NCBI GenBank assembly: GCA_964016885.1 | Contig: OZ024750.1 | Coordinates: 29,698,001-29,762,000 of the forward strand | Direction: 5' to 3' | Length of the DNA: 64,000 bases | Origin: Eledone cirrhosa | Taxonomy: Eukaryota | The notes under the pieces: model-generated | Seen by the model: the letters and a program-made list of their open reading frames with translations, nothing else | What the model was told of the DNA's origin: nothing | The model's database searches: none | Position numbers and translations under genes: made by a program | Shown: positions 5,626-64,000 of the stretch, piece after piece | Layout: the number at the start of each line of letters is the position of its first letter | How positions within the stretch are numbered: the first letter of the stretch is position 1

Positions 5626-5999
5626 AGAAGAAGAAAGATGCGTCGATGAGAATGTGCATGTAATAAAATAGACTCAGGAGAAAGTTAAAAGTGAGGAATT
5701 CATAAAAGCTAAAAGGCGGTCCATTAAATAAACAAACATGGAAGAATGTGTAGAAAATTAATGTGTTCCTTGTATTTATTCTAGATAAGGTCATCTTAAC
5801 CTCAACATGTCTGTGTAGAAAAGGTGGTGTATATAATAACTGGAATATTAATTATAATTAATTAAAACAGGATGTAATGCGGTCTGTACATTTACATATT
5901 GTCAGTATTAATGGATGTTAGGGTTAAATGATACATATTTTGTGAATGGATAATTCTGGAGGCTGGTGGCAGTCTGGAGGTCCTCCGTCGTTTCCGAAG

Positions 6000-9541: not shown

Positions 9542-10036
9542 CTCACGTTGTAGCCAACAAAAGTATCGTATATTCACCTGATGTTAGAGAAACTAGAATA
9601 TATTTGTTGCATATTTTTACTTTAGGGCTCTGAAATATAACAATAACAGCAGCACCAACAACAACTACAACCGAAACAACAACAGCAACTACAACAACAA
9701 CAACAGTAGCAACAGCCACAACATTAACCGCAACAACAATAACACTAAGTCAACTGAATGAAAATCAGGAGAATTTAGTTAAGTGATACAATATCTCTGG
9801 AGAGTTGTTTAGAAATCTGAACTGTAGATGTTGTTAAAGGGGTTTTATATTGTAGTTGTGATGGTGGGGAGGGTGGTGGTAGTGGTGGGGGATGGTGGTG
9901 TTGGCGATGATGGTAGGGTTGGAGTGTGATAGTGGGGGAGAGTGGTTGTGATGGTGATTTGATGGTTGTGATGGTGGGGATGATGGCAGTTGTGGGGGTG
10001 ACAGTGGTAGTTGTAGTGGGGGGTGATTGTTATGAT

Positions 10037-22000: not shown

Positions 22001-24462
22001 GGTTGTGGAGGTTGTAGTAACAGTGGTGGTTGTGGAGGTTGTAGTAACAGTGATGGTTGTGGAGGTTGTAGTAACAGTGGTGGTTGTGGAGGTTGTAGTA
22101 ACAGTGATGGTTGTGGAGGTTGTAGTAACAGTGATGGTTGTGGAGGTTGTAGTAACAGTGGTGGTTGTGGAGGTTGTAGTAACAGTGGTGGTTGTGGAGG
22201 TTGTAGTAACAGTGATGGTTGTGGAGGTTGTAGTAACAGTGGTGGTTGTGGAGGTTGTAGTAACAGTGATGGTTGTGGAGGTTGTAGTAACAGTGATGGT
22301 TGTGGAGGTTGTAGTAACAGTGATGGTTGTGGAGGTTGTAGTAACAGTGATGGTTGTGGAGGTTGTAGTAACAGTGGTGGTTGTGGAGGTTGTAGTAACA
22401 GTGGTGGTTGTGGAGGTTGTAGTAACAGTGGTGGTTGTGGAGGTTGTAGTAACAGTGATGGTTGTGGAGGTTGTAGTAACAGTGGTGGTTGTGGAGGTTG
22501 TAGTAACAGTGATGGTTGTGGAGGTTGTAGTAACAGTGATGGTTGTGGAGGTTGTAGTAACAGTGATGGTTGTGGAGGTTGTAGTAACAGTGATGGTTGT
22601 GGAGGTTGTAGTAACAGTGGTGGTTGTGGAGGTTGTAGTAACAGTGGTGGTTGTGGAGGTTGTAGTAACAGTGGTGGTTGTGGAGGTTGTAGTAACAGTG
22701 GTGGTGGTGGAGGTTGTAGTAACAGTGATGGTTGTGGAGGTTGTAGTAACAGTGATGGTTGTGGAGGTTGTAGTAACAGTGATGGTTGTGGAGGTTGTAG
22801 TAACAGTGATGGTTGTGGAGGTTGTAGTAACAGTGGTGGTGGTGGAGGTTGTAGTAACAGTGGTGGTTGTGGAGGTTGTAGTAACAGTGATTGTTGTGGA
22901 GGTTGTAGTAACAGTGGTGGTTGTGGAGGTTGTAGTAACAGTGGTGGTTGTGGAGGTTGTAGTAACAGTGGTGGTTGTGGAGGTTGTAGTAACAGTGGTG
23001 GTTGTGGAGGTTGTAGTAACAGTGGTGGTTGTGGAGGTTGTAGTAACAGTGGTGGTTGTGGAGGTTGTAGTAACAGTGGTGGTTGTGGAGGTTGTAGTAA
23101 CAGTGGTGGTTGTGGAGGTTGTAGTAACAGTGATGGTTGTGGAGGTTGTAGTAACAGTGGTGGTTGTGGAGGTTGTAGTAACAGTGGTGGTTGTGGAGGT
23201 TGTAGTAACAGTGGTGGTTGTGGAGGTTGTAGTAACAGTGGTGGTTGTGGAGGTTGTAGTAACAGTGGTGGTTGTGGAGGTTGTAGTAACAGTGGTGGTT
23301 GTGGAGGTTGTAGTAACAGTGATGGTTGTGGAGGTTGTAGTAACAGTGGTGGTGGTGGAGGTTGTAGTAACAGTGGTGGTTGTGGAGGTTGTAGTAACAG
23401 TGGTGGTTGTGGAGGTTGTAGTAACAGTGGTGGTTGTGGAGGTTGTAGTAACAGTGGTGGTTGTGGAGGTTGTAGTAACAGTGGTGGTTGTGGAGGTTGT
23501 AGTAACAGTGATTGTTGTGGAGGTTGTAGTAACAGTGATGGTTGTGGAGGTTGTAGTAACAGTGATGGTTGTGGAGGTTGTAGTAACAGTGATTGTTGTG
23601 GAGGTTGTAGTAACAGTGGTGGTTGTGGAGGTTGTAGTAACAGTGGTGGTTGTGGAGGTTGTAGTAACAGTGATGGTTGTGGAGGTTGTAGTAACAGTGG
23701 TGGTTGTGGAGGTTGTAGTAACAGTGATTGTTGTGGAGGTTGTAGTAACAGTGGTGGTTGTGGAGGTTGTAGTAACAGTGATTGTTGTGGAGGTTGTAGT
23801 AACAGTGATGGTTGTGGAGGTTGTAGTAACAGTGATGGTTGTGGAGGTTGTAGTAACAGTGGTGGTTGTGGAGGTTGTAGTAACAGTGGTGGTGGTGGAG
23901 GTTGTAGTAACAGTGATGGTTGTGGAGGTTGTAGTAACAGTGATGGTTGTGGAGGTTGTAGTAACAGTGGTGGTGGTGGAGGTTGTAGTAACAGTGATGG
24001 TTGTGGAGGTTGTAGTAACAGTGGTGGTTGTGGAGGTTGTAGTAACAGTGATTGTTGTGGAGGTTGTAGTAACAGTGATGGTTGTGGAGGTTGTAGTAAC
24101 AGTGGTGGTGGTGGAGGTTGTAGTAACAGTGATGGTTGTGGAGGTTGTAGTAACAGTGGTGGTTGTGGAGGTTGTAGTAACAGTGATTGTTGTGGAGGTT
24201 GTAGTAACAGTGATGGTTGTGGAGGTTGTAGTAACAGTGATGGTTGTGGAGGTTGTAGTAACAGTGATGGTTGTGGAGGTTGTAGTAACAGTGGTGGTTG
24301 TGGAGGTTGTAGTAACAGTGGTGGTTGTGGAGGTTGTAGTAACAGTGATGGTTGTGGAGGTTGTAGTAACAGTGATGGTTGTGGAGGTTGTAGTAACAGT
24401 GATGGTTGTGGAGGTTGTAGTAACAGTGATGGTTGTGGAGGTTGTAGTAACAGTGGTGGTTG
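10037..24462. repeat. giant 27-bp minisatellite/satellite, ~530 copies
   Basis: Unit GTTGTAGTAACAGTGATGGTTGTGGAG with a few recurrent variants (GAT/GGT, GGT/TGT, CAGT/CATT). Confidence 0.99.
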
Positions 24463-24671
24463 TATTTATGGAGGTCATGGGAGATCGCTGTGATGGTAGT
24501 AGTGTTGGTAGTTGTTGTTGTGATGTAGTGCTGGTTGTAGTAACAGTAGTGGTAGTGGAGTGGTAGTGGTAGTTATGGTAACAGCAATAGAGATCATGGA
24601 AATTAGTAAAAACAAAACGACGACGACAATCATATTAATATTGCGTTACATAGAAAACAGTTTAACAGGAG

Positions 24672-26365: not shown

Positions 26366-26599
26366 CGTTTAGATAATGTAATCCTAGATATGTAATTCCT
26401 GAAAGAAGTAGGAGATTGTCATGTTAGGAATGCTTTTGATCATAGGTGTTGTGTGTCTGTTGAGTCAGAGCTGACCTAGGGTTAAACAACAACGATGGCC
26501 GTTTTTACTTCTATGAAGTTGTAAGGTGTAAGGGTAGGAATGGTGGTGGTGGTGGCGGTGGTGGTGGTCGGTGAACAGACGCCATTACAGGGAACAGTT

Positions 26600-27265
26600 A
26601 CTGGCTTCAGTCATTTGGCTGTGGCCATGCTGGGGTATTGTTCTTTTACTAGCTTCAGTCATTTGGCTGCGGCCATGCTACGGTACTATTCTTTTACTAG
26701 TTTCAGTCATTTGTCTGTGGCCATGCTGGGGTATTGTTCTTTTACTAGCTTCAGTCATTTGACTATGGCCATGCTGGGGTATTGTTCTTTTACTAGCTTC
26801 AGTCATTTGACTGCGGCCATGCTGGGGTACTATTCTTTTACTAGTTTCAGTCATTTGTCTGTGGCCATACTGGAGTACTGTTCTTTTATTGGCTTCAGTC
26901 ATTTGACTGTGGCCATGCTTGAGTACTGTTCTTTTATTGGCTTCAGTCATTTGACTGTGGCCATGCTTGAGTACTGTTCTTTTATTGGCTTCAGTCATTT
27001 GACTGTGGCCATGCTTGAGTACTGTTCTTTTATTGGCTTCAATCATTTGACTGTGGCCATGCTGGAGTACTGTTCTTTTATTGGCTTCAGTCATTTGACT
27101 GTGGCCATGCTGGAGTACTGTTCTTTTATTGGCTTCAGTCATTTGACTGTGGTCATGCTTGAGTACTGTTCTTTTATTGACTTCAGTCATTTGACTGCGG
27201 TCATGCTGGAGTACTGTTCTTTTATTGGCTTCAGTCATTTGACTGCGGTCATGCTGGAGTACTAT
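26600..27265 (-). repeat. 48-bp minisatellite derived from SINE D 3' end, ~14 copies
   Basis: Sense unit CAGTACTCCAGCATGGCCACAGTCAAATGACTGAAGCCAATAAAAGAA; 16-aa period in the ORF track. Confidence 0.9.
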
Positions 27266-27775: not shown

Positions 27776-27839
27776 CTGAATGCTGTCTAGTTCGATGGTT
27801 TCATGGATCAAGTTGGTGACACTGTACACAGACTTAAAT

Positions 27840-30800
27840 AGCAGCAACAACACCAGCAGCACCAGTAGCAGTAACAACACCAGCAGCACCAGCAGCACCA
27901 GTAGCAGTAACAACACCAGCAGCACCAGTGGCAGTAACAACACCAGCAGCACCAGTAGCAGTAACAACACCAGTAGCAGTAACAACAACAACACCAGCAG
28001 CACCAGTAACAACAACACCACCAGCAGCACCAGTAGCAGTAACAACACCAGCAGCACCAGTAGCAACAACAACACCAGTAGCAGTAACAACAACAACAAC
28101 AGTAACAGCAACAGCAGTAATAACAACTGTCACAATAATACCACCACCAGCAGTAATAACAACAACAACAACAACAACAACAGTAACAACGATACCAGCA
28201 GCTGCAATAACGACACCAACAGCAGTAGCAATAACAACAACAGTAGTAGTAACAACGATACCACCACCAGCAGCAGCAGCAGCAGCTCAATAATGACATC
28301 AACAGCAATAGCAATAATAACACCATCATCAGCAGCAGTAATAACAACAGTAACGACGATACCAGCAGCAACAGCAGTAGTAACACCAGGAGCAGCAGTA
28401 ATAACAACAACAGTAACACCACCACCACCACCGGCAGCAGTAATAACACCACCACCACCACCGGCAGTAACACCACCACCACCACCATCAGCAGTAACAA
28501 CACCACCACCACCACCACCACCACCACCAGCAGTAACAACACCACCACCACCACCATCAACAGTAACAACACCACCACCACCACCGGCAGTAACAACACC
28601 ACCACCACCACCATCAACAGTAACAACACCACCACCACCACCATCAACAGTAACACCACCACCACCACCACCATCAACAGTAACAACACCACCACCACCA
28701 CCACCGGCAGTAACACCACCACCACCACCATCGGCAGTAACAACACCACCACCACCGGCAGTAACACCACCACCACCACCATCGGCAGTAACAACACCAC
28801 CACCACCACCGGCAGTAACAACACCACCACCACCACCGGCAGTAACAACACCACCACCACCACCGGCAGTAACAACACCACCACCACCACCATCAACAGT
28901 AACAACACCACCACCACCACCGGCAGTAACAACACCACCACCACCACCATCAACAGTAACAACACCACCACCACCACCATCAACAGTAACAACACCACCA
29001 CCACCACCATCAACAGTAACAACACCACCACCACCACCATCGGCAGTAACAACACCACCACCATCGGCAGTAACACCACCACCACCACCACCGGCAGTAA
29101 CAACACCACCACCACCACCGGCAGTAACACCACCACCACCACCATCAACAGTAACAACACCACCACCACCACCGGCAGTAACACCACCACCACCACCATC
29201 GGCAGTAACAACACCACCACCACCGGCAGTAACAACACCACCACCACCATCGGCAGTAACAATACCACCACCACCACCGGCAGTAACAACACCACCACCA
29301 CCATCGGCAGTAACAACACCACCACCACCGGCAGTAACACCACCACCACCACCACCACCGGCAGTAACACCACCACCACCACCGGCAGTAACACCACCAC
29401 CACCACCATCGGCAGTAACAACACCACCACCACCGGCAGTAACAACACCACCACCACCACCGGCAGTAACAACACCACCACCACCATCGGCAGTAACAAC
29501 ACCACCACCACCGGCAGTAACACCACCACCACCACCACCGGCAGTAACAACACCACCACCACCGGCAGTAACAACACCACCACCACCACCGGCAGTAACA
29601 ACACCACCACCACCATCGGCAGTAACAACACCACCACCACCACCATCAACAGTAACAACACCACCACCATCAACAGTAACAACACCACCACCACCATCGG
29701 CAGTAACAACACCACCACCATCAACAGTAACAACACCACCACCACCACCATCGGCAGTAACAACACCACCACCATCGGCAGTAACACCACCACCACCACC
29801 ACCGGCAGTAACAATACCACCACCACCACCGGCAGTAACACCACCACCACCACCACCAGCAGTAACAACACCACCACCACCACCATCAACAGTAACAACA
29901 CCACCACCACCACCGGCAGTAACAACACCACCACCACCACCGGCAGTAACACCACCACCACCACCATCGGCAGTAACAACACCACCACCACCACCATCAA
30001 CAGTAACAACACCACCACCACCACCGGCAGTAACACCACCACCACCACCATCGGCAGTAACAACACCACCACCACCACCATCAACAGTAACAACACCACC
30101 ACCACCACCGGCAGTAACAACACCACCACCACCACCGGCAGTAACACCACCACCACCACCATCGGCAGTAACAACACCACCACCACCACCGGCAGTAACA
30201 CCACCACCACCACCACCACCAGCAGTAACAACACCACCACCACCACCATCAACAGTAACAACACCACCACCACCACCGGCAGTAACAACACCACCACCAC
30301 CACCGGCAGTAACACCACCACCACCACCATCGGCAGTAACAACACCACCACCACCACCATCAACAGTAACAACACCACCACCACCACCGGCAGTAACACC
30401 ACCACCACCACCATCGGCAGTAACAACACCACCACCACCACCATCAACAGTAACAACACCACCACCACCACCGGCAGTAACAACACCACCACCACCACCG
30501 GCAGTAACACCACCACCACCACCATCGGCAGTAACAACACCACCACCACCACCGGCAGTAACACCACCACCACCACCACCAGCAGTAACAACACCACCAC
30601 CACCACCATCAACAGTAACAACACCACCACCACCACCGGCAGTAACAACACCACCACCACCACCGGCAGTAACACCACCACCACCACCACCAGCAGTAAC
30701 AACACCACCACCACCACCATCAACAGTAACAACACCACCACCACCACCGGCAGTAACAACACCACCACCACCATCGGCAGTAACAACACCACCACCATCG

Positions 30801-32940
30801 GCAGTAACAACACCACCACCACCACCGGCAGTAACACCACCACCACCACCATCGGCAGTAACAACACCACCACCACCGGCAGTAACAACACCACCACCAC
30901 CATCGGCAGTAACAACACCACCACCACCGGCAGTAACACCACCACCACCACCATCGGCAGTAACAACACCACCACCACCGGCAGTAACAACACCACCACC
31001 ACCACCGGCAGTAACAACACCACCACCACCACCATCAACAGTAACAACACCACCACCACCACCATCAACAGTAACAACACCACCACCACCACCATCAACA
31101 GTAACAACACCACCACCACCACCGGCAGTAACAACACCACCACCACCACCGGCAGTAACAACACCACCACCACCACCGGCAGTAACAACACCACCACCAC
31201 CACCGGCAGTAACAACACCACCACCACCACCGGCAGTAACAACACCACCACCACCATCGGCAGTAACAACACCACCACCACCGGCAGTAACAACACCACC
31301 ACCACCACCGGCAGTAACACCACCACCACCACCATCGGCAGTAACAACACCACCACCACCATCGGCAGTAACAACACCACCACCACCACCAGCAGTAACA
31401 ACACCACCACCACCACCGGCAGTAACAACACCACCACCACCATCGGCAGTAACAACACCACCACCACCACCGGCAGTAACAACACCACCACCACCACCGG
31501 CAGTAACAACACCATCACCACCACCGGCAGTAACAACACCACCACCACCATCGGCAGTAACAACACCACCACCACCGGCAGTAACAACACCACCACCACC
31601 ACCGGCAGTAACACTACCACCACCACCATCGGCAGTAACAACACCACCACCACCATCGGCAGTAACAACACCACCACCACCACCAGCAGTAACAACACCA
31701 CCACCACCACCATCAACAGTAACAACACCACCACCACCACCGGCAGTAACAACACCACCACCACCACCGGCAGTAACAACACCACCACCACCGGCAGTAA
31801 CAACACCACCACCACCGGCAGTAACACCACCACCACCACCACCGGCAGTAACACCACCACCACCACCATCGGCAGTAACAACACCACCACCACCACCGGC
31901 AGTAACAACACCACCACCACCACCATCGGCAGTAACAACACCACCACCACCGGCAGTAACAACACCACCACCACCATCAACAGTAACAACACCACCACCA
32001 CCACCACCGGCAGTAACAACACCACCACCACCACCGGCAGTAACAACACCACCACCACCATCAACAGTAACAACACCACCACCACCACCGGCAGTAACAA
32101 CACCACCACCACCACCGGCAGTAACACCACCACCACCACCATCGGCAGTAACAACACCACCACCATCGGCAGTAACAACACCACCACCACCACCGGCAGT
32201 AACACCACCACCACCACCATCGGCAGTAACAACACCACCACCACCGGCAGTAACACCACCACCACCACCATCGGCAGTAACAACACCACCACCACCACCA
32301 TCAACAGTAACAACACCACCACCACCACCACCGGCAGTAACAACACCACCACCACCACCGGCAGTAACAACAACACCACCACCGGCAGTAACAACACCAC
32401 CACCACCACCGGCAGTAACAACAACACCACCACCGGCAGTAACAACACCACCACCACCACCATCAACAGTAACAACACCACCACCACCACCGGCAGTAAC
32501 AACACCACCACCACCGGCAGTAACAACACCACCACCACCACCGGCAGTAACACCACCACCACCACCACCACCATCAACAGTAACAACACCACCACCACCA
32601 CCACCGGCAGTAACAACACCACCACCACCGGCAGTAACAACACCACCACCACCACCATCAACAGTAACAACACCACCACCACCGGCAGTAACAACACCAC
32701 CACCACCACCGGCAGTAACAACACCACCACCACCACCGGCAGTAATAACAACACCACTACCACCAGCAGCAGTAATAACAACAACAGTAACAACACCAAC
32801 ACCACCACCACCAGCAGTAATAACAACAGTAGTAACGACGACAGCAGCAGCAATAACAACAACAATAACAACAACAGCAATAACGACGAAGCAGCAGCTG
32901 TAACAACAACAGTAACAACTACAACAGCAGTAATAACAAT
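27840..32940. repeat. (CCA/CAG/AAC)-derived variable minisatellite; main array ~28430-32740
   Basis: Units (CCA)3-7 + CCG/TCG GCA or TCA ACA + GTAACA(ACA); all length variation is in triplets. Confidence 0.95.
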
Positions 32941-33130
32941 GGCAGCGAGAGTGAATTTGTTATGGTGACAATAGTAAAAATAGTATTAACAAATACCAGT
33001 AGTAGTAGTAGCAGTAACAGTTGTAGCAGCAGTAAGGAGTAGTAATGGTGGTTGTTGTGGTAGTAGTGTTGGTGGTAGTAATAGTGGTGGTCTCTTTTAA
33101 CCAACTTCTCCACAACTAGTCTCCTAAACC

Positions 33131-42989: not shown

Positions 42990-43215
42990 GGTGTTTATGT
43001 CCCGTAACTTAGCGGTTCGACAAGAATGGATCAATAAAATGGGTACCAGACTTGGGAAACAAAAATGTACACTGGAATTGACATGGTTGACAAAAATGAA
43101 GGCAGTGCTCCAGCATGGCAGCAGTCTAATGACTAAAACCCACAAAAGAAGGCAGTGCTGCCACAGCATGGCCGCAGTCTAATAACTGAAACCCGTAAAA
43201 GAAGGCAGTGCCCTA
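42990..43215 (+). mobile_element. 3' part of SINE family D seeding the adjacent array
   Basis: GTAACTTAGCGGTTCGACAA..GTACCAGACTT..AAGGCAGTGCTCCAGCATGG; two longer ~52-bp proto-units precede the 36-bp array. Confidence 0.75.
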
Positions 43216-46200
43216 GCATGGCCACAGTCTAATGACTGAAACACTGCCACAGCATGGCCACAGTCTAATGACTGAAACACTGCCACAGCATGGCCACAGT
43301 CTAATGACTGAAACTCTGCCACAGCATGTCCACAGTCTAATGACTGAAACACTGCCACAGCATGGCCACAGTCTAATGACTGAAACTCTGCCACAGCATG
43401 GCCACAGTCTAATGACTGAAACACTGCCACAGCATGGCCACAGTCTAATGACTGAAACACTGCCACAGCATGGCCACAGTCTAATGACTGAAACACTGCC
43501 ACACATGGCCACAGTCTAATGACTGAAACTCTGCTGCAGCATGGCCACAGTCTAATGACTGAAACTCTGCCACAGCATGGCCACAGTCTAATGACTGAAA
43601 CACTGCCACAGCATGGCCACAGTCTAATGACTGAAACACTGCCACACATGGCCACAGTCTAATGACTGAAACACTGCCACAGCATGGCCACAGTCTAATG
43701 ACTGAAACACTGCCACAGCATTGCCACAGTCTAATGACTGAAACACTGCCACAGCATGGCCACAGTCTAATGACTGAAACTCTGCCACAGCATGGCCACA
43801 GTCTAATGACTGAAACACTGCCCAGCATGGCCACAGTCTAATGACTGAAACACTGCCACACATGGCCACAGTCTAATGACTGAAACTCTGCTGCAGCATG
43901 GCCACAGTCTAATGACTGAAACACTGCCACAGCATGGCCACAGTCTAATGACTGAAACACTGCTGCAGCATGGCCACAGTCTAATGACTGAAACACTGCT
44001 GCAGCATGGCCACAGTCTAATGACTGAAACACTGCTGCAGCATGGCCACAGTCTAATGACTGAAACACTGCCACAGCATGGCCACAGTCTAATGACTGAA
44101 ACTCTGCTGCAGCATGGCCACAGTCTAATGACTGAAACACTGCCACAGCATGGCCACAGTCTAATGATTGAAACACTGCCACACATGGCCACAGTCTAAT
44201 GACTGAAACACTGCCACAGCATGGCCACAGATTAATGACTGAAACACTGCCACAGCATGGCCACAGTCTAATGACTGAAACACTGCTGCAGCATGGCCAC
44301 AGTCTAATGACTGAAACACTGCCACAGCATGGCCACAGTCTAATGACTGAAACACTGCTGCAGCATGGCCACAGTCTAATGACTGAAACACTGCCACAGC
44401 ATGGCCACAGTCTAATGACTGAAACACTGCCACAGCATGGCCACAGATTAATGACTGAAACACTGCCACAGCATGGCCACAGTCTAATGACTGAAACACT
44501 GCCACAGCATGGCCACAGTCTAATGACTGAAACACTGCCACAGCATGGCCACAGTCTAATGACTGAAATACTGCTGCAGCATGGCCACAGTCTAATGACT
44601 GAAACACTGCTGCAGCATGGCCACAGTCTAATGACTGAAACACTGCCACAGCATGGCCACAGTCTAATGACTGAAATACTGCTGCAGCATGGCCACAGTC
44701 TAATGACTGAAACACTGCTGCAGCATGGCCACAGTCTAATGACTGAAACACTGCCACAGCATGGCCACAGTCTAATGACTGAAATACTGCTGCAGCATGG
44801 CCACAGTCTAATGACTGAAACACTGCTGCAGCATGGCCACAGTCTAATGACTGAAACACTGCCACAGCATGGCCACAGATTAATGACTGAAACACTGCCA
44901 CAGCATGGCCACAGTCTAATGACTGAAACACTGCCACAGCATGGCCACAGTCTAATGACTGAAACACTGCTGCAGCATGGCCACAGTCTAATGACTGAAA
45001 CACTGCCACAGCATGGCCACAGTCTAATGACTGAAACACTGCTGCACCATGGCCACAGTCTAATGACTGAAACACTGCTGCAGCATGGCCACAGTCTAAT
45101 GACTGAAACACTGCCACAGCATGGCCACAGTCTAATGACTGAAACACTGCCACAGCATGGCCACAGTCTAATGACTGAAACACTGCCACAGCATGGCCAC
45201 AGTCTAATGACTGAAACACTGCTGCAGCATGGCCACAGTCTAATGACTGAAACACTGCTGCAGCATGGCCACAGTCTAATGACTGAAACACTGCCACAGC
45301 ATGGCCACAGTCTAATGACTGAAACACTGCCACAGCATGGCCACAGTCTAATGACTGAAACACTGCCACAGCATGGCCACAGTCTAATGACTGAAACACT
45401 GCTGCAGCATGGCCACAGTCTAATGACTGAAACACTGCTGCAGCATGGCCACAGTCTAATGACTGAAACACTGCCACAGCATGGCCACAGTCTAATGACT
45501 GAAACACTGCCACAGCATGGCCACAGTCTAATGACTGAAATACTGCTGCAGCATGGCCACAGTTTAATGACTGAAACTCTGCTGCAGCATGGCCACAGTC
45601 TAATGACTGAAACACTGCCACAGCATGGCCACAGTCTAATGACTGAAATACTGCTGCAGATTGGCCACAGTCTAATGACTGAAACACTGCCACAGCATGG
45701 CCACAGTCTAATGACTGAAACACTGCCACAGCATGGCCACAGTCTAATGACTGAAATACTGCTGCAGCATGGCCACAGTCTAATGACTGAAACTCTGCTG
45801 CAGCATGGCCACAGTCTAATGACTGAAACACTGCCACAGCATGGCCACAGTCTAATGACTGAAACACTGCCACAGCATGGCCACAGTCTAATGACTGAAT
45901 TACTGCTGCAGCATGGCCACAGTAGAATGACTGAAACTCTGCTGCAGCATGGCCACAGTCTAATGACTGAAACACTGCTGCAGCATGGCCACGGTCTAAT
46001 GACTGAAACACTGCCACAGCATGGCCACAGTCTAATGACTGAAACACTGCTGCAGCATGGCCACAGTCTAATGACTGAAACACTGCCACAGCATGGCCAC
46101 AGTCTAATGACTGAAACACTGCTGCAGCATGGCCACAGTCTAATGACTGAAACACTGCTGCAGCATGGCCACAGTCTAATGACTGAAACACTGCCACAGC

Positions 46201-46872
46201 ATGGCCACAGTCTAATGACTGAAACACTGCCACAGCATGGCCACAGTCTAATGACTGAAATACTGCTGCAGCATGGCCACAGTCTAATGACTGAAACACT
46301 GCTGCAGCATGGCCACAGTCTAATGACTGAAACACTGCCACAGCATGGCCACAGTCTAATGACTGAAACACTGCCACAGCATGGCCACAGTCTAATGACT
46401 GAAACACTGCCACGGCATGGCCACAGTCTAATGACTGAAACACTGCTGCAGCATGGCCACAGTCTAATGACTGAAACACTGCTGCAGCATGGCCACAGTC
46501 TAATGACTGAAACACTGCCACAGCATGGCCACAGTCTAATGACTGAAACACTGCCACAGCATGGCCACAGTCTAATGACTGAAACACTGCCACAGCATGG
46601 CCACAGTCTAATGACTGAAACACTGCCACAGCATGGCCACAGTCTAATGACTGAAACACTGCCACAGCATGGCCACAGTCTAATGACTGAAACACTGCCA
46701 CAGCATGGCCACAGTCTAATGACTGAAACACTGCCACAGCATGGCCACAGTCTAATGACTGAAATACTGCTGCAGCATGGCCACAGTCTAATGACTGAAA
46801 CACTGCTGCAGCATGGCCACAGTCTAATGACTGAAACACTGCTGCAGCATGGCCACAGTCTAATGACTGAAA
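43215..46872 (+). repeat. 36-bp minisatellite, ~100 copies
   Basis: Unit CTGC(CA/TG)CAGCATGGCCACAGTCTAATGACTGAAACA. Confidence 0.98.
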
Positions 46873-47142
46873 CCCATCGAAAATAAAGAAAGAATAAAAG
46901 CTAAAGCTGGAAAAGGGCAGAAAGGAGAGGGAGAGCCACAAATTCCGACATTGACTGCAGGGAATTAGAGAGAGGGGGAGGGAGGGTGATTGGGAGGTAT
47001 ATATATATATACACATACACATACATATATATATACATATATATATAGAGAGAGAGAGAGAGGGAAAGAGAGAGAAGAAATGTGTTGCATCACAGAGATA
47101 AATGAAAGTTGTAAGACAAGCAGGCTCTACGTAAGTACACAG

Positions 47143-55384: not shown

Positions 55385-56250
55385 ATGGTGGGGTGGGGGT
55401 AGGACCATGTACTGACCATCGTCTGCTAACCAAGGCGTAGGGCCACATACTGACTATCGTCTACTAACTACGGGGTAGGGTGTAGGGTTATATACTGACC
55501 ATCGTCTGCTAACCACGGGGTAGAGGGTAAGGAGATATACTGACCATCGTCTGCTAACCACGGGGTAGGGGGTAGGGCTATTGTCTGACCATGGTCTGCT
55601 AACCACGGGGTAGGGGGTAGGGCTATTGTCTGACCATTGTCTGCTAACCACGGGGTAGGGGGATGCTGACCATTCGTCTGCTAACCCCAGGGTAGGGGGT
55701 AGGGACATGCTGACTATCGTCTGCTAATCCCGGAGTAGGGGTAGGGACATGCTGACCATCGTCTGTTAACCACGGGGAAGGGACATGCTGATCATCGTCA
55801 ACTAACCACGGGGTAGGAGTAGGGCCACATACTGACTATCGTCTGCTAACCACGGGGTAGGGGGTAAGGACATGCTGACCATCGTCTGCTAACCATGGAG
55901 TAGGGGGTATTGGTAGGGCTATAGACTGACCATCGTCTGCTAACCACGGGCTAGGGGGTAATGACATAGACTGACCGTCGTCTGCTAACTACGGGGTAGG
56001 GGTAGGGCCACATACTGACCATCGTCTGCTAACCATGAGGTAGGGGGTAGGGACATGCTGACCATCGTCTGCTAACCACGGGGTAGGGGGTATTGATAGG
56101 GCTATAGACTGACCATCGTCTGCTAACCACTGGATAGGGGGTAGGGGTAGGGCTATAGACTGACCATCGTCTGCTAGTCACATGTATTTCGTGAAGGTGG
56201 GGGTGTTGTAGGAGGTAGGGACATGTGTTGAACATCCATCGTCTGCTGGT
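55385..56250. repeat. G-rich ~35-52 bp minisatellite, ~19 copies
   Basis: CTGACCATCGTCTGCTAACCAC-GGGGTAGGGGGTAGGG-ACATG. Confidence 0.9.
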
Positions 56251-56588: not shown

Positions 56589-56589
56589 T

Positions 56590-56663
<74 letters not shown>

Positions 56664-56684
56664 TAGACAGACAGACAGATAGAC
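56589..56684. repeat. (GACA)n/(GATA) microsatellite abutting the LINE 3' end
   Basis: About 23 tetramer units. Confidence 0.95.
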
Positions 56685-56909
56685 AAATTTCTGTTTATTT
56701 GCCACTAGGGCACAAAAGAAAGGGACATGTACATGGGTGGGGGGGAGTTTACATAAAAATCGAGTAAGAAAAATATAACAAACAAAATAATAACAAGAAG
56801 GTCCTCAATAGGGAGGGATCGTTTTGGGGTCACACACACCCCCGAAAAAAGTGTGCGACCCTTCTCCACGGGAGCACAAAGAGAGGGTGCTCCCTCCTTT
56901 CTGTTCCAC

Positions 56910-59900
56910 CTACAGGCTGAGGTAGAGAGAAGGCCCATTCACACGGGCCATTCTCGCAACTTTCACCCACCTTTCATAAAACTGGCTGGAGTGGAGCACC
57001 TCTCTCTCCATCCTGATCCTTCTTCCGAAATGGTATCGGAAAAAAAGGACCAGTTGTTGGCCGGAGAGAAAGGTGTCCGACCTCAGCCCTTTTAGACGCG
57101 TCCACCATATAGCCTCTTTTACCATGGCTATTACACAGAGGAAGACCGCCTCTCCTTCATTTTTGAAGGGGGGAGGCGGCTTGATCGTTACAATGGACTC
57201 GGTGGTCAACCTAATTGGTCCCACCCGTGACAGCAGTTGTTCAACATAGCCCCACAGATCGGCAACGCCCGGGCAGTGCACCAATGCGTGCGCGACGGTT
57301 TCCTCGTCGCGCACGCATCTGGGACAGATCTTTTTCGAGGGGTCCCTACCCGGGCGCCCGTGTCTGTAGAGCTTATCCCGAACGGGCAGAGCCCCTCGGT
57401 AGCACTGCCAGGCCAAGGACTTCTGGAAGTTGTCCATAGGTCCCGGGCCGAAAGTCCTACCGAATAGACTGGCCAGTTCGTCCTCCTCCATGCCTAGGGC
57501 TTCTCCGAGGGCGTCGTCGCACCCGCTAACCACCAGCCCTCTATAGAATGACGAGGTGGAGTCTCCGTCGATAGCCGGGTCCGCCTGCCAGAGAGCCGTG
57601 AGCGCCTGGGCACACTCGGTGTGCCAGTCGCCCAGTTTTCTCGGTCTTTGCTTCACCCAGGACTGCAGCTCGGTGAGCGAGACGAGCCTCGGGAAGGCTC
57701 GCCTCACAAACGGGGCCCACACCGGTTGACCGGTGAGGAATACGTGGAGGTGCCTTAGCCTCAATGCGTGTTTACGCATTTTTAGCCACGGCATCCCCAG
57801 CCCTCCTTTCAAAGGGTGTTGACAGCAGATGGATCTCCTCACTAGAGGAGACTTCTTCCAAAGGAAATAAAAGAGGGCGCGCTCCATTTTGGCGAGGATC
57901 TCACCCGGGCAAGGCACGACAGTCAAGCGGTAATAGATGACGGACGCTATGTAAGCGTTCGCCACCTCCGCCCGACCTTTTAGGGATAGTTTGCACTCGG
58001 CCCACTTCTGGGTCAGTGCAAACACCCTATTCGTCACCTCACCCCAGTTTTTCTCCACCTGGAGGTCCGGTCCGAACCAGACCCCAAGCAACTTCACCGG
58101 GCCCTCCGTCCACCGTCCGACGATACCGTCGCACGACATCGCTTTGCCCCTCCACTCGCCGAGTTGCAAAGCGACTAACTTGTCCCGGTTCAGCTTAGCC
58201 CCTGTCAACCTTTCGTACTCCTCTAGTAAGGTGCCGATTGCCTCGATTTCCGAGGCGGTCGACACCATTACTGTTACGTCATCGGCGTAGGCCGACACCG
58301 CTTTGCGCAATCCCGGTTCCAAAGGGATGCCCTGCAACAACTCCAACTTCCGCAGTAATGGCTCGAGAGTCAATACATACAGAAGGGAGGAGAGAGGGCA
58401 CCCCTGTCGGATGGAGCGGGTGATTTCGAACGGCTCCGAAAGGTAGCCGTTCACCTTGACTCTAGAGCAGATGCGGCTGCTGTGCATGGCAGTGATCCAG
58501 CCCCTGAAAACGGGTCCGAACCCAGCCGCCGCTAGCACCGCATCCAGGTAACCATGGTCCACCCTATCGAACGCTTTAGACTGATCTAAATTTATCAGGG
58601 CCCCACCAAAGCCGGGTTCGTTCCCAACCCTCTCTATGATGTATCGCATGAGGTGGAGGTTGTCGTGGATGGACCTGGACGGGATAGCGCATGTCTGCGC
58701 ATCTCCCACCAGGCCCCCCCACGACAAGCGCCAACCTCTTCGCTAACACCTTCGCCAAAATCTTTAACTCTGCATTTAGCAGAGTTATGGGCCTAAAATT
58801 ACTAATGTCATCCCCCTTGTTCTCGTCCTTCCTCACTAGCGAGACTACGCCCTTGGTCACAGAACAGGGAATTCTCCCGTTCTGTTGCCAGTTGCAGTAG
58901 ACCGCCTCGAGGAGATCGGGGAACAAGTCCGGCATATTAATATATAGTTCGTAGGGCAGACCATCGAGTCCTGGAGATTTGCGTTTGCCGCATAGGCTCA
59001 GCACGTCCCCTATTTCAGCAGCTGAGATCGGCCCGTCGCAGGACCTCGCCTCCCTGTCCGAAAGACGCGGCAGGCCGTCGAGGTATGGACCGAAATCCAC
59101 ATCTGCAACCGGCTCCCCGCCCCTCCCGAACAATTGGGCAAAGTGCCTTTGAAAGGCCTCGCACATTTGCTTAGGTTCAAGGATCAGCCGTCCATCCTGG
59201 TCTCGCAAAGACCGGATAGTGGATTTAATCCCACTTTTCGCTTCTGTCACGCGGGCCCAGCTAACAGCTTTGGTCCCCTCGTTTCCCAGAGCACGTATTT
59301 TGCTTCGGACAACGCAGCCTTCGTGTTTCGCGTCGAAGAACTGGTTCAAGACCGTTCTCGACGCTTGCACTCTGGCCACGTTGCCGCTTCTCATTGCCTC
59401 TTCAACATTAACTACCAACTCCCTTTCCTTCCTATTTCTATCTGAGGCTAACTCCTTACTAACTCCTATTGAAACTACTCTAATCTCTCTTTTTAGAGAG
59501 CCCCACCACCTGTTGTTGACGATGGCGCCCGTCAACTGCTCCTTAACTAAGGTTCTAATCCGGTCCCTGTAAGCTCTACTTGCCGGTAAGGACAAGTTGA
59601 GCTTCCAGTAACCGGGCCCCTGCCTATGCGTTCTATCAAGGTGGACTACGCAGGTCACTAACTTGTGGTCTGAATAGCCCACCATGAGCATTTCTGGGCA
59701 ACTTAAAAAGTCCCTATCCTTAATTCTAACTAAGAACCTATCTAGGTACGATCTAGATTGACCACTGTTATTTGACCAGGTCCAGGTTGGTACAGTCGGA
59801 AAATCTAGTCGGTATCTATCGGCCAGGTCGAATCGGCCGATTAACCCCTTAAGGCTGTTACACCCCCCTCTATCGGGACATGCCCCTACATAGTCCCAAC

Positions 59901-60345
59901 GTGCATCTAGGATACCATTCCAGTCCCCCACTAAAAGCAAGGAGCGGGACGTCCCTAGAAAAGTCTCCAGACGATGGAAGAAGTCCGACCGCATTGCCCC
60001 AAAAGGGGCGTATACGGCGACAAGCCTAAAAGCTTCGCCTTCGCCATTGCCAAGGTCCAGAACCACGAGTCGACCCTCCGGGTCCAAGTGTACCGTCTGT
60101 GTAGCGAGACCCAGATGTTTTTGCAGCAGAACGACAACCCCACCCCCACCTCCGGGCTGACAGAGAGATGCGTGCATCTCAAAGTCATCAAAGGTGGGGG
60201 TTAGCTGTCGCATGCTGCTGATCCGGGCCTCGCAAATAACCATCACATTTACACATTGTGACCTGAGGTCACTTAGAAGTTTAGCTTGCTTCCAAGGTGA
60301 GCCCAGGCCACGCGCATTTAGACAACCCACTCTTAAGACAGCCAT
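56910..60345 (-). CDS. LINE ORF2: APE endonuclease + reverse transcriptase + C-terminal CCHC; single +1 frameshift at ~58714-58720
   Basis: APE motifs NARGL, VYAP, GDWN, YLDRFL, SDHK, GYWKLN. RT motifs KSPGLDG, FRPITLLN, DQSKAFDRV, IRQGCPLS, YADD, LLGV, GGLG. Zn motif CPRC..ETVAHALVHC. Removing one G from the G7 run joins the two ORFs into ~1144 aa. Confidence 0.93.
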
Positions 60346-60368
60346 GTTGGTGGCAAAGAAAGAGGCAC

Positions 60369-62129
60369 TTACCTCTCTGCGTCCCGGGGTTCGGGTCGCT
60401 CAGTTTCCATGGGGCTGGTGGCGGGGTTGATGGGTGGGGTGGTGGTTTGTGGTGTTGTGGGGGTATTGGTGTGTGGAGGGGTTGGGATCTTTGGAGTTGT
60501 GTGGGTGTTTGAGGAGGGGAGGGGAAAACCTTTCAGGAGGACGCGGTTGAGTGGCCTGGTGCAGGGTGGGCCCACGTCCTCAGGGTACATGTCTTTTAAA
60601 GTTTTAAAAATGTCAAGTGGGATTTTCACCATTTTCAGGTTAGGGAGCCCCATTGCCGTTACGAAATTCGGCCCTTCGGTTTGTATCGAAGGGTTGGTTT
60701 CTATTTTTAAAGTTAGGTTTTCATTGTTTTTGTTTATGTATGTGTAGAGTTTTTGTGTTGTTGTGTTTGTTTTTGCTTGTTGTTGTTGAGTGAGTTTGCG
60801 TTTTATTGTCTGTGTTGTGTTGTCAGGTGGGGTTATTTTTGTTGTTGTGGTGTGTGTACGTTTTTTTCTTTTCACTTTTTGGAAGGGAGCCCCCTCGTCT
60901 TCCGACGATATGAGCTCCTCTTCCGTATTGGAGGGGAGGGGTATATCTCCGGGTTGTGTATGAACTGTTTTTGTATTTGTGTTCTGTGGGGTGGGGCTGG
61001 GTGGGACCGTGTTTTGGGTTGTTTTCTTGAGCTGTTGTTGATGTTGTTGTTGTTGTTGTGGTGGTGGTGGTGGTGGTGTTGTTGGTTTTTGTTGTTCTGG
61101 TGGAGATGGTAGTGTATTTTGTTGTTTTTGTGATGGTGGTGCTGGTTGTTTTTGTTGTTGTTGTGGTGTTTGTAGCAGTGGTTTTTTAGTTGTTAGTAGA
61201 GGGCAGGCCGTCCTCAGGTGACCTCTGCCAGCGCAGTGGTAACATGAGGGTCTCCTGCCTTCCACTGTGATATTTATGTAGGTTCGCCCATCCAGTAGCA
61301 CTCGGTCGGGTATTCCGGAGATTCTCTCAGGTGTCATCTGTAAGAGAACCTCCAGACTTTTCCCCCCGAACAGTCCACTGGTGGACTCCCCTGCTGAAAT
61401 TAGTATGTCCTTATCTAGGTCGGTAAATCCTGTTAGGACGGACCAGATGTTAATTTCTGGCGTAGGGCTCCACATTCTTATTCTTTGTGTTCTTCTTCCT
61501 TTATATGTGGGGAAGAAGGTGTATTGTGGTGACACTATAGGTGCCACCGAATATTTCTGAGCCAGCATTTCGTCCTTCATTCGGACCATAATGCTGGCAT
61601 ACAGCTTTCCTCTTTGAATAAAGAGTATGTCATTTTTAATTTCTTTCAGAACCAGCTCGATTTGACTTTCGGTCAATTGCGCTGGCTTTCTCGTTTCGTT
61701 GGTTATGGTTCTGAAGCTTACGGTATTCTTGTAAATCTGTTGACGCACTTCTTCTGGGGAGTTGATCGTAAAAGAACCATCCTCCCCAAAAGATACGTAT
61801 TTTCTAGCCTCTAGCAAATTTTCCTTGGCGTTCGTGATGTCAATGGCTTTGTACTCCGTGGCTCTCTTGAGTGTTTGGGCAAAAGAAATTTTGTCTTTGT
61901 TTGTTGTTGTAATGTTGTTGGTTTCCTTATTTGTGGTGTTATTTTTTTCTTGAAAATTAATTTTTTCATTTGAATTGAAATTCTTTTTTTCATTGGAGAG
62001 GAGGGGTTGTTCAACAGTTTGAACTGTTGTTCCCTCTTTCCCGCTTGTTTTTTTGGTCGGCGTGGCGTTCGCTTCCAATATGGCGATATCGTTTTCGACG
62101 ATATCGTTATCAACGATATCGATGAACAT
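60369..62129 (-). CDS. LINE ORF1, gag-like nucleic-acid-binding protein (586 aa)
   Basis: Intact ORF directly upstream of ORF2; zinc knuckle CYHCAGRGHLRTAC (CX2CX4HX4C); P/Q/T-rich linker and basic KVKRKKR. Confidence 0.88.
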   Translation of the reverse strand: MFIDIVDNDIVENDIAILEANATPTKKTSGKEGTTVQTVEQPLLSNEKKNFNSNEKINFQEKNNTTNKETNNITTTNKDKISFAQTLKRATEYKAIDITNAKENLLEARKYVSFGEDGSFTINSPEEVRQQIYKNTVSFRTITNETRKPAQLTESQIELVLKEIKNDILFIQRGKLYASIMVRMKDEMLAQKYSVAPIVSPQYTFFPTYKGRRTQRIRMWSPTPEINIWSVLTGFTDLDKDILISAGESTSGLFGGKSLEVLLQMTPERISGIPDRVLLDGRTYINITVEGRRPSCYHCAGRGHLRTACPLLTTKKPLLQTPQQQQKQPAPPSQKQQNTLPSPPEQQKPTTPPPPPPQQQQQHQQQLKKTTQNTVPPSPTPQNTNTKTVHTQPGDIPLPSNTEEELISSEDEGAPFQKVKRKKRTHTTTTKITPPDNTTQTIKRKLTQQQQAKTNTTTQKLYTYINKNNENLTLKIETNPSIQTEGPNFVTAMGLPNLKMVKIPLDIFKTLKDMYPEDVGPPCTRPLNRVLLKGFPLPSSNTHTTPKIPTPPHTNTPTTPQTTTPPINPATSPMETERPEPRDAER

Positions 62130-62344
62130 TTCTCAAATATTTATTTTTCACCCCAAAAGGGGTGAAAATATATTTACCCGACGTCTAGAGTCCCAGACTA
62201 GGGGTTACAGTTAATTATACAAAATAATTCAAAAAAATCCACTCACAAAATTAGCAGGTAAAAATCCAAATCACAGAGCGATATGACACACGTCTACTAT
62301 CCTCAGACAGACAGACAGACAGATAGACAGCCAGATAGACAGAT

Positions 62345-62720
62345 AAATATGTTTCTTTATTAGCCACAGGGGCACAAAAGAAGGGGACAAATACAAAGGG
62401 GGAAGTTTACATACAATAAAAACGTGTAAAATATTATCACAAATGCAATTTAAAAAATTAGTCGATTTTCCCCAATAGGGGGAGACAGTTCATATGGGTA
62501 ACACATACCCCCGAAAAAATGTGCAACCCTCATCTCCAGGAGTACGAAGAGTTTGTACACCTTTCCTCTGCTCCTCCTTTTCCTCAACCTACAGGCTGAT
62601 CTAGAGAGAAGGCCCATTCACTCGGGCCATTCTCGCCACTTTCGCCCACCTTTCATAAAACTTGCTGGGGTACAGCACCTCTCTCTCCACCCTGATTCTT
62701 CTTCCAAAGTGGGTATTTGA
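62345..62720 (-). mobile_element. 5'-truncated Tx1-type LINE copy 2
   Basis: Encodes HFGRRIRVEREVLYPSKFYERWAKVARMARVNGPSL, followed by a homologous 3' UTR ending GTGGCTAATAAAGAAA. Confidence 0.9.
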
Positions 62721-62756
62721 AAAAAAGAGATAGATAGACAGACAGACAGATAGATA

Positions 62757-63286
62757 AATTTCTTTATTAGCCACAAGGGCACAAAAGAAGGGGACAAATA
62801 CAAATGGGGAGTTTACATACAGGTATATGAAAATAAAACTATTAATAAAACAACAAATAACAATTGAAATCCCCAATAGGGGGGAGGCGTTACACAGGGG
62901 TTGTACACACCCCGAAAAAATGTAGAACCCTCATCTCCACGAGCACCAAGAGTGAGTACTCCCTTCTTCTCTTCCTCATTTTCCTCAACCTACAGAGAGA
63001 AGGTCCAACCACTCGGGCCATCTTTGCTACATTCACCCACCTTTCAGTAAATTTACTGGGGTGCAGTGCCTCTCTCTCCACTCTGATTCTCCTTCTAAAG
63101 TGGTACCTAAAGAAGGGAATGAGTTGTTGTCGAGAAGAGAGAGAAAGGCATCTGTCCTCTCAATCTCGTCCACCATATAACCTCTTTCACCATAGCCACT
63201 GTACAGAGGAAAACCGCCTCTCTTTCGTTTTTCAAAGAAGTTGGCGGTTTGATCCTTACTATGGACTCGGCAGTCAACTGGATGGC
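62757..63286 (-). mobile_element. 5'-truncated Tx1-type LINE copy 3 (more diverged)
   Basis: Encodes IQLTAESIVRIKPP..EAVFLCTVAMVKEVIWWTRL..EREALHPSKFTERWVNVAKMARVVGPSL with a frameshift; homologous 3' UTR. Confidence 0.9.
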
Positions 63287-64000
63287 AGACGGACAGATAG
63301 ATAGACAAACTGACATATAGATAGATAGACATACAGACGCAAAGACAGATATATAAACACTCATATATACATACATATGGTGGTGGCTGCCAACTCGTTT
63401 TCGAGTACGGCCACTACTTTATATCCATGTAGGAGAACCCCTACCGATGCGCTGAACGAGTGTGACTTCCCAGTCCAGCCAGCGACTTGAAAACTCTGGT
63501 ACAAACACTACACTTGTGACAATTATTGACACATAGTGCTGGGCCCATGGTACCATGTGACGACAAGTGCAGAGAGATCTCCAGATATAAAGCAATGCCT
63601 GTGCTGTGAAGCTTTTATAGTGAGCAAAAGCACTGCACAAAGCCAGTCCCACTCTCTTAACCAAGATGATATTTACCAAAAAGAAGAACAAGTCAACATC
63701 GTTGGATACCATCAGGGCTGTAGGTGTTATATCAGAGTTTTCCTTCTCCTAGAATTCTGCCTTGACAAAGGCTAAGGGGTCATCTCTCCCGGTGATTTTG
63801 GATGGCCATTGACTCTTAAGAGCTTCTTTGCCCTTTGACAGGTTTTGTTTTTAGTCCTGCAAGATGTCCAGTCACCCTCCTCTCCAAGAAACCTTGGTGG
63901 GGTTGCCAGTTTAGTCGCCAACGACCCGACCATGGGACAGGTTGTACTGGGATACATGTTACCAGTAGCACCAACTGGTGACCTGACATAACATACATAT

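What the first reader, a model, noticed from the sequence alone, without database searches (positions are those of the whole stretch)
56589..63350. Candidate (GACA/GATA)n-targeting Tx1 LINE family: three independent insertions stacked in one tetranucleotide microsatellite
Seen: one full-length and two 5'-truncated copies lie head-to-tail in the same orientation. All six junctions fall in GACA/GATA repeats (56589-56684, 62305-62345, 62728-62756, 63286-63350). The copies differ in sequence, UTR indels and truncation point, so they are not a tandem duplication. None has poly(A): AATAAA is followed within about 10 nt by (TCTG/TCTA)n. The outermost 5' flank is also GACA/GATA with no further element beyond it, which favours a target site over a self-made tail. 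Established: several Tx1-clade families are sequence-specific, for snRNA genes or simple repeats. Inference: this lineage has an APE endonuclease that prefers (TCTG/TCTA)n. I do not know of one described in this host group. GACA tracts are otherwise absent from this TA/CA-dominated window, so chance is unlikely.
Basis: partly seen in the sequence, partly recalled or inferred. Interest (0 to 1): 0.8.

Follow-up and report, generated by a model that had tools for sequence, protein, structure and literature searches.

The report
Octopod Tx1 LINE homing on GACA/GATA
Three diverged copies of one jumping gene (a Tx1-type LINE, likely from an octopus-like animal) lie head-to-tail, and every end touches a GACA/GATA repeat found nowhere else in this 64-kb window; it likely homes on that repeat, which would be a new target sequence for a behaviour already known in fish and crocodilians.

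Summary
Observation confirmed. A 5.6-kb minus-strand LINE (ORF1 with a weak CCHC knuckle; ORF2 APE-RT-zf-RVT, one frameshift) and two 5'-truncated copies (about 380 and 530 nt) lie head-to-tail. Four GACA/GATA tracts (not six independent junctions) bound them; no tract of three or more units occurs elsewhere in the window, whose first 56.6 kb is 11% other microsatellite. The copies are 71-82% identical, and copy 1 versus copy 3 differs mostly at third codon positions (p=1e-6), so they come from separate source lineages. The nearest named RT is Argonauta (63%). A quick tree places the lineage beside fish/turtle proteins, one of them labelled TX1. Raw reads of the same species label show one further junction: a copy ending at 57950, then GACA/GATA units, then another copy's 3' end. 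A second shown junction lacks the repeat. Genome-wide flanks could not be obtained, so family-level specificity is untested, and so is endonuclease preference. Target-site duplications are unresolved. Best reading: a Tx1 lineage preferring (TCTG/TCTA)n, like Kibi/Koshi but with a new motif, likely priming on read-through repeat RNA. New variant of a known kind; a Repbase/Dfam precedent is not excluded.

The parts
56590..56685 (+). Tract A, (GACA/GATA)24; 3' flank of copy 1, reads (TCTG/TCTA)n on the element strand
   Evidence: 23 of 24 units
56686..62305 (-). Copy 1, apparently full-length Tx1-type LINE (about 5.62 kb)
   Evidence: 5' end inferred from complete ORF1 and leader
56686..56909 (-). 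Copy 1 3' UTR (224 nt); AATAAA at 56699-56694; predicted hairpins, including a terminal stem that takes in the A-rich end
   Evidence: 6 of 37 pairs change on both sides among 3 sequences; weak
56910..60345 (-). ORF2: APE endonuclease with catalytic motifs present (N10, E39, Y112, D141, N143, D202, H227), RT, zf-RVT; broken by one frameshift at about 58715-58721 near a G/C homopolymer
   Evidence: table 4: 25,450 of 36,977 summed contig depth in run X1 lacks one base at 58717
60369..62129 (-). ORF1, 586 aa, CCHC knuckle at residues 295-310, low-complexity Q/P/T tail
   Evidence: PF00098 E 0.067, below cut-off; feature hits 0.91-0.92 to unnamed and zf-CCHC clusters; ZCCHC3-type RNA-binding clusters at 0.89, a lead only
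62130..62305 (-). Copy 1 5' leader (about 175 nt)
62306..62345 (+). Tract B, 40 nt; 5' flank of copy 1 and 3' flank of copy 2
62346..62728 (-). Copy 2, 5'-truncated (last ~44 ORF2 codons plus 3' UTR); AATAAA at 62361-62356
62729..62756 (+). Tract C, 28 nt; 5' flank of copy 2 and 3' flank of copy 3
62757..63285 (-). Copy 3, 5'-truncated (last ~100 ORF2 codons, with frame-breaking indels, plus 3' UTR); AATAAA at 62768-62763
   Evidence: table 4 (5 extra bases at 63132-63138 absent from 5,849 of 6,895 depth in X1)
63286..63351 (+). Tract D, degenerate GACA/GATA; outermost 5' flank, no further element beyond
   Evidence: 10 of 16 units

Best explanation
This is a stack of three diverged Tx1-type LINE copies bounded by GACA/GATA tracts, likely made by three separate insertions of an octopod lineage that likely prefers (TCTG/TCTA)n as its target. 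Shown: the architecture, separate source lineages, all three 5' ends and all three 3' ends in tracts, and one more such 5'-side junction in raw reads. Inferred steps: (1) the ORF2 APE domain would nick the purine-rich (GACA/GATA)n strand. (2) The RNA would be cut 10-30 nt after AAUAAA, that is inside the downstream repeat, so it carries a few (RUCU) units; these would pair with the nicked strand and prime reverse transcription there, which explains the lack of poly(A). (3) Early stops give 5'-truncated copies joined to the tract. (4) Each insertion leaves repeat on both sides, so the site stays usable and later subfamilies land beside earlier ones. The likely order is copy 3 (most decayed, most degenerate tract), copy 2, then copy 1.
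For: All 4 tracts of three or more units in 64 kb lie at element ends, and 3 of 3 copies are in the stack, although AC/AT/ACC arrays cover most of the 11% microsatellite content of bases 1-56588. Copy 1 vs copy 3: 39 of 94 third positions differ against 27 of 186 first and second positions, p=1.2e-6, the mark of divergence in active sources. Outer tract D has no element beyond it, so a self-made tail does not explain it. Raw reads of run X13 (105 reads, probably one locus) join position 57950 through about six GATA/GACA units to another copy's 3' end (table 5c), a breakpoint not present in this window. APE catalytic residues are intact and the fold matches L1 EN. Candidate 18-nt duplication for copy 3 (1 mismatch), matched only by its own pair of tracts. 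Precedent: Kibi (TC)n, Koshi (TTC)n, crocodilian Tx1 (TTCC)n/(TTTC)n (PMC4494074, passages and section 15); priming by RNA-target annealing is proposed for SART1 and R1Bm (PMC7265360, passages).
Against: No genome-wide flank count: no genome held, and scans for close loci found none. Of the 12 rows shown table 5c (315 hidden), only 1 has the repeat. Another row (57896 joined to an ORF2-end sequence, 117 reads) is a 5'-side join with no GACA/GATA; it may be an insertion at a CT-rich spot inside another copy or an internal rearrangement. None of the 24 loose-end rows shown (8,327 hidden; rows at repeats were dropped) is GACA/GATA; in X1, X13 and X5 they look like diverged family sequence. Summed depth over ORF2 is about 1e5-5e5 in X1, against 5-23 for single contigs shown; that suggests very many relatives at >=80% identity, which is unusual for a strict site-specific family. 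Duplications are not established: copy 1's 26-nt candidate is matched as well by cross pairs (21-25 nt), and copy 2 has none. Copy 1 vs copy 2 codon bias is not significant (p=0.26). The window was picked because of the stack (ascertainment).
Confidence: 0.6

Rival explanations
1. The repeat is an element-made 3' tail (as in UnaL2's (UGUAA)n, extended by template slippage). The endonuclease is loose, and RNA-DNA pairing alone favours sites that resemble the tail, so stacks form only now and then and most solitary copies have random 5' flanks.
For: No poly(A); an ATTT unit stands at or next to the first repeat unit in all three 3' ends and in the read junction, as expected of carried sequence; a predicted terminal stem-loop precedes the repeat (z -2.6 and -3.0 for copies 2 and 3, -1.2 for copy 1), like the stem-loop plus repeat of UnaL2 (PMC1636434, passages); very high apparent copy number.
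Against: Needs all three 5' ends in the window and one in reads to land in tracts; tract D has no owner; L1/Tx1-type elements are not known to me to carry such tails (recalled).
Confidence: 0.25
2. The stack arose in one event: the reverse transcriptase copied copy 1 to its 5' end, then jumped to the 3' ends of two other family RNAs.
For: Same orientation, short spacers (28-40 nt), and template jumps are known for non-LTR RTs (recalled).
Against: The copies differ in decay (copy 3 has frame-breaking indels, copy 1 one frameshift); three RNAs about 20% apart would have to meet in one reaction; tract D still needs a repeat target.
Confidence: 0.08
3. Chance clustering, passive retention in repeat-rich DNA, or a mis-join of the assembly across GACA tracts.
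For: The window is repeat-rich; no listed contig spans the whole stretch.
Against: The far commoner AC/AT/ACC arrays hold no copy; the same 5' end-repeat-3' end layout appears within single 150-nt raw reads at another breakpoint; a mis-join would still need repeat at 5' ends.
Confidence: 0.05

Closest known systems
Kibi (TC)n and Koshi (TTC)n Tx1 families of teleosts; crocodilian Tx1-1_Crp group, (TTCC)n/(TTTC)n (PMC4494074; PMC3812793)
   Same: Tx1-type APE LINE inserted in a pyrimidine-rich, TC-containing microsatellite (here TCTG/TCTA on the element strand; the strand convention of those papers was not checked). In a quick RT tree the cephalopod clade is sister to 13 fish/turtle proteins including Takifugu and Tetraodon (SH-aLRT 90).
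   Different: Different motif (mixed tetranucleotide with a purine in each unit), cephalopod host, RT only 35-41% identical to those vertebrate proteins, apparent very high copy number, stacking of diverged subfamilies. No tree row is a verified Kibi or Koshi.
Octopus L1-Tx1 families in automated annotations (O. vulgaris: 80 families, 56.3 Mb; 13 recently active, 421 insertions; PMC13282606)
   Same: Same clade label and likely host group; this element is probably among such families.
Waldo (ACAY), Mino (AC), Dong (TAA, including DongBg of the snail Biomphalaria), Togen (TG) (PMC3812793; PMC4640811)
   Same: Non-LTR elements that insert into microsatellites; one is from a mollusc.
   Different: Other clades and other motifs.
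UnaL2 (L2 clade) stem-loop plus terminal repeat (PMC1636434); SART1/R1Bm RNA-target annealing (PMC7265360)
   Same: What the 3' end may work like: structured 3' UTR, repeat units at the RNA end used to start reverse transcription.
   Different: Other clades; UnaL2's repeat is element-encoded; SART1 normally inserts with poly(A).

Membership tests
L1 group / Tx1 clade LINE | ORF2 with APE endonuclease, RT and C-terminal zinc-binding region | tested here: met
   PF03372 E 5e-7, PF00078 E 3e-19, PF13966 E 6e-6 (27.3 bits, cut-off 27.5); best PDB hits human L1 ORF2p and L1 EN
L1 group / Tx1 clade LINE | Separate ORF1 with RNA-binding domain and CCHC knuckle | tested here: inconclusive
   586-aa ORF1 with a visible CCHC motif; Pfam E 0.067; atlas feature hits 0.89-0.92
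L1 group / Tx1 clade LINE | RT groups with Tx1 references rather than with L1 proper | tested here: inconclusive
   Quick tree of 42 rows: sister to fish/turtle proteins including one labelled 'Transposon TX1' (SH-aLRT 90), apart from 6 plant L1s (99); no vertebrate L1 or curated Tx1 reference among the rows; 1 of 14 vertebrate rows fell outside
L1 group / Tx1 clade LINE | 5' truncation of most copies | tested here: met
   2 of 3 copies truncated; ORF1 depth about 1,000-6,000 against 1e5-5e5 over ORF2 in X1 (ORF1 divergence between families adds to this)
L1 group / Tx1 clade LINE | Target-site duplication | tested here: inconclusive
   18 nt (copy 3, own pair only), 26 nt (copy 1, equalled by cross pairs), none for copy 2
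Target-specific Tx1 family (Kojima 2015 criterion) | One sequence type in more than 20% of flanks of the family | not testable with these tools
   No genome; 3 of 3 copies in an ascertained window; 1 supporting and 1 non-matching junction among the 12 rows shown table 5c
Target-specific Tx1 family (Kojima 2015 criterion) | Endonuclease cleaves the target selectively | not testable with these tools
   Needs a nicking assay; the model's hairpin region 183-200 has pLDDT below 50
Kibi / Koshi | Target (TC)n or (TTC)n | tested here: not met
   Flanks are (TCTG/TCTA)n; the 10 AG/TC arrays in bases 1-56588 hold no copy
Kibi / Koshi | Phylogenetic membership | tested here: inconclusive
   Separate cephalopod-containing clade (99), sister to the vertebrate group; no verified Kibi/Koshi sequence available
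L2-type stringent LINE with encoded repeat tail | L2-clade RT, single ORF | tested here: not met
   Two ORFs; RT nearest Tx1/L1-type proteins
L2-type stringent LINE with encoded repeat tail | Conserved 3' stem-loop followed by repeat | tested here: inconclusive
   Terminal stem predicted in all three copies but invariant; whole-UTR model 6 of 37 pairs with two-sided change, 6 of 500 shuffles as high, 3 sequences only

The most novel reading that the evidence does not exclude
A high-copy octopod Tx1 lineage is locked to (TCTG/TCTA)n by a feedback loop: the target repeat itself supplies the U/GU-rich cleavage zone after AAUAAA and the RNA units that prime the next insertion. Only copies sitting in the target would then propagate, diverged subfamilies would keep stacking in the same tracts, and the element would account for a large share of GATA/GACA microsatellites in octopod genomes.
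Probability: 0.2. Interest if true: 0.65.

Novelty: new variant of a known kind. Interest (0 to 1): 0.45.

Why it matters
If the preference holds genome-wide, it extends microsatellite targeting in the Tx1 clade from vertebrates to cephalopods and adds a new motif. That gives a natural pair (Kibi/Koshi against this element) for asking how an APE endonuclease, or the RNA 3' end, changes target; PMC3812793 says the mechanism of such targeting is not well understood. It would also show that target preference and very high copy number can go together. Practically, GATA/GACA markers in octopods would often have multi-copy flanks. It does not reveal a new kind of system.

Tried and rejected
Whole genome: none held. 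3' UTR motif in metagenome and viral contigs: 0 matches; a shorter motif gave 105 viral matches, and blastn of the element against all 137 loci held found no match among them. Alignment-based metagenome scan: 32 loci, only 22-47% identical, other lineages, no ACAG/AGAT array listed in them. Genome and viral scans with the close-relative alignment or a back-translated motif: none; plasmids: none. Reading 5' junctions from proteins: 155 ORF2 C-terminal homologues (plus 5) were screened for peptides coded by (TCTG/TCTA)n; none had such a run before the aligned part (2 single 5-mer hits inside alignments). This is uninformative, since gene calls start at ATG and most hits are decayed, distant copies. 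Rfam: 0 matches. No RNA holder listed, which says nothing on expression. Run X7 gave 27 records only. Earlier scan findings: nothing in 4 look-ups. The careful tree did not finish; the quick tree is reported. Central 3' UTR folds were not consistently better than shuffles (z -2.05, -0.95, -0.15). Tandem duplication rejected (different breakpoints and UTR indels).
Full report
OBSERVATION. The sequence holds, on the minus strand, a 5.62-kb element at 56686-62305 and two shorter relatives at 62346-62728 and 62757-~63285, all in one orientation. A census of runs of three or more GACA/GATA units finds 6 matches in 64 kb, all between 56602 and 63331, making four tracts: A 96 nt, B 40, C 28, D about 65 and degenerate. 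In bases 1-56588, short-period arrays cover 6,250 bases (11%), mainly AC, ACC, AT and ACAT, with no ACAG or AGAT array. tblastn finds ORF2 homology only in these three copies. The six junctions are four tracts, and the informative facts are that all three 5' ends and all three 3' ends touch them.

ANATOMY. Copy 1 has a ~175-nt leader, ORF1 of 586 aa (62129-60369) with a CCHC motif (Pfam E 0.067; atlas feature hits to zf-CCHC clusters at 0.90-0.92), a 23-nt spacer, and ORF2 (60345-56910) with APE, RT and zf-RVT domains. The APE catalytic motifs align with human L1, and the predicted fold matches L1 ORF2p and L1 EN best (mean pLDDT 68, hairpin region poorly modelled). ORF2 is broken by one frameshift at about 58715-58721; most contig depth of run X1 lacks one base there (25,450 of 36,977), so the break is likely private to this copy or an assembly slip. 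Each 3' end has AATAAA, a short A-rich terminus and, 6-10 nt after AATAAA, the (TCTG/TCTA)n tract; no poly(A). The 3' UTRs can form shared hairpins with 6 two-sided changes in 37 pairs, and an invariant terminal stem; with three sequences this is a hint only.

HOST AND CLADE. The RT half's nearest named relatives are Argonauta hians (63%) and Acanthosepion pharaonis (50-53%); unnamed records reach 70-72%; fish and turtle proteins, one labelled 'Transposon TX1 149 kDa', are at 29-42%. The host is therefore likely an octopod (inferred). A quick RT tree of 42 rows puts the query with Argonauta and two unnamed rows (99), inside a 12-row clade with Sepia and unnamed rows (99), sister to 13 of 14 vertebrate rows (90) and away from six plant L1s. 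No curated Tx1, Kibi, Koshi or vertebrate L1 sequence was available, so the Tx1 label is likely rather than proven. O. vulgaris has 80 L1-Tx1 families covering 56.3 Mb, 13 recently active (PMC13282606: first third of the text read, term search of all of it and of its one readable supplement); no target is mentioned.

INDEPENDENT INSERTIONS. The copies are 71-77% identical locally and 77-82% over aligned columns. Between copies 1 and 3, 39 of 94 third codon positions differ against 27 of 186 first and second positions (p=1.2e-6); copies 1 and 2 overlap by only 44 codons and show no significant bias (p=0.26). The divergence thus built up in active source elements, not after a local duplication. 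Copy 3 has frame-breaking indels and the most degenerate tract, which suggests the order 3, 2, 1 (inferred). Target-site duplications cannot be called firmly inside a repeat: copy 3 has an 18-nt candidate that only its own tract pair matches; copy 1's 26-nt candidate is equalled by cross pairs of 21 and 25 nt; copy 2 has none.

EVIDENCE BEYOND THE WINDOW. No genome is held, and the collection scans returned no locus of this lineage. Twelve public runs from eight studies and nine organism labels hold part of the element (only the four laid are used here). Laying four runs at 80% likeness gave summed depths of about 1e5-5e5 over ORF2 in X1 (organism A) and up to 1.2e6 in X5 (organism B), against 5-27 for the single contigs listed. 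The tool warns that this is no copy number, but it points to a very large family group. In raw RAD reads of organism A (X13), 105 reads join position 57950, through about six GATA/GACA units, to a 3' end like copy 2's. This is the same 5' end-repeat-3' end layout at a breakpoint absent from the window, inside single reads; it probably represents one locus. It is 1 of 12 rows shown in that table (315 hidden). A second row (57896 to ORF2-end sequence, 117 reads) has no such repeat and is ambiguous. None of the 24 loose-end rows shown (8,327 hidden; rows at repeats dropped) carries the repeat, but the table keeps the best-supported rows, which in three of the four runs look like continuations into diverged subfamilies. 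A screen of 155 homologous protein fragments for repeat-coded peptides was negative and insensitive.

MECHANISM. A self-made tail alone explains tracts A, B and C, but not why copies 1 and 2 start exactly at another copy's tail, nor tract D, nor the read junction; some targeting is needed. I judge it most likely (0.6) that the APE domain would nick the (GACA/GATA)n strand and that the RNA, cleaved inside the downstream repeat, would prime on it. The 10-30-nt distance from AAUAAA to cleavage and the U/GU-rich downstream element are general knowledge (recalled); RNA-target annealing is proposed for SART1 and R1Bm (PMC7265360, passages). The main rival (0.25) is an encoded tail as in UnaL2 (PMC1636434, passages) with a loose endonuclease and only occasional stacks. 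A single template-jump event (0.08) and chance or mis-assembly (0.05) fit worse. Which of endonuclease and RNA pairing sets the choice is untested.

COMPARISON WITH WHAT IS KNOWN. Tx1-clade targeting of microsatellites is established: Kibi (TC)n, Koshi (TTC)n, crocodilian families (TTCC)n/(TTTC)n; 'GATA' does not occur in that paper's main text, and its supplements and figure labels could not be read (PMC4494074, passages and section 15). A review lists ACAY, AC, TC, TTC and TAA targets, including DongBg in a snail, and has no GACA (PMC3812793, passages); Togen targets (TG)n (PMC4640811, passages). The element works like Kibi/Koshi but fails their target test, so it is not filed under them. 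Searches for a GACA/GATA-targeting LINE or a targeted cephalopod Tx1 found none (listings, plus term passages of PMC8967140, PMC10294476, PMC3747384 and PMC8869645). Kojima and Fujiwara 2004 is not held, and Repbase and Dfam cannot be searched here, so an existing description is not excluded.

VERDICT. A real feature. Most likely an octopod Tx1 lineage with a preference for (TCTG/TCTA)n: a new motif and host group for a known kind of behaviour, resting on one ascertained locus and one supporting read junction. New variant of a known kind; interest 0.45.

Noticed in passing
window 10023-24463: 14.4-kb array of a 27-bp unit (536 copies, 95% matches) with stop-free frames up to 4,912 codons on the minus strand; could be a mucin-like Thr/Ser-rich exon or a plain satellite that lacks stops.
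   Followed up: no
window 27780-32985: Second 27/81-bp array with 1,570-1,725-codon open frames on both strands, about 68% similar to the first array in reverse orientation, possibly only through low complexity.
   Followed up: no
window 26598-27263 and 43215-46873: A 48-bp array (14 copies) and a 36-bp array (102 copies) share a core motif in opposite orientation; I recall this motif from octopus SINEs, not checked. Two satellites may derive from one short element.
   Followed up: partly
window 55400-56176: 45-bp G-rich minisatellite (16 copies) about 400 nt from tract A; unrelated to the LINE.
   Followed up: no
window 60369-62132 vs 56910-60345: ORF1 is A/C-rich (A 39%, C 29%) and ORF2 G-rich (G 31%); CpG is little depleted (o/e 0.71 and 0.85). 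ORF1 depth in organism B is as low as about 50 against up to 1e6 over ORF2, so ORF1 and the leader seem to turn over fast between subfamilies.
   Followed up: partly
table 5c, joint 57896 to 62629 (run X13): A join from mid-RT sequence to the CT-rich end of ORF2 of another copy, without GACA/GATA; may be an insertion at a TCT-rich site within the element or an internal rearrangement.
   Followed up: partly
P0157: A 63%-identical piece of this LINE's ORF2 is labelled as a Herbaspirillum MAG protein, likely animal DNA contaminating a bacterial assembly.
   Followed up: no
P0004-P0023: A group of unnamed ENA proteins, 36-41% identical and with clusters of up to 732 members, falls with the Sepia rows next to the octopod clade; their flanks would show whether the repeat preference is older than octopods.
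   Followed up: no
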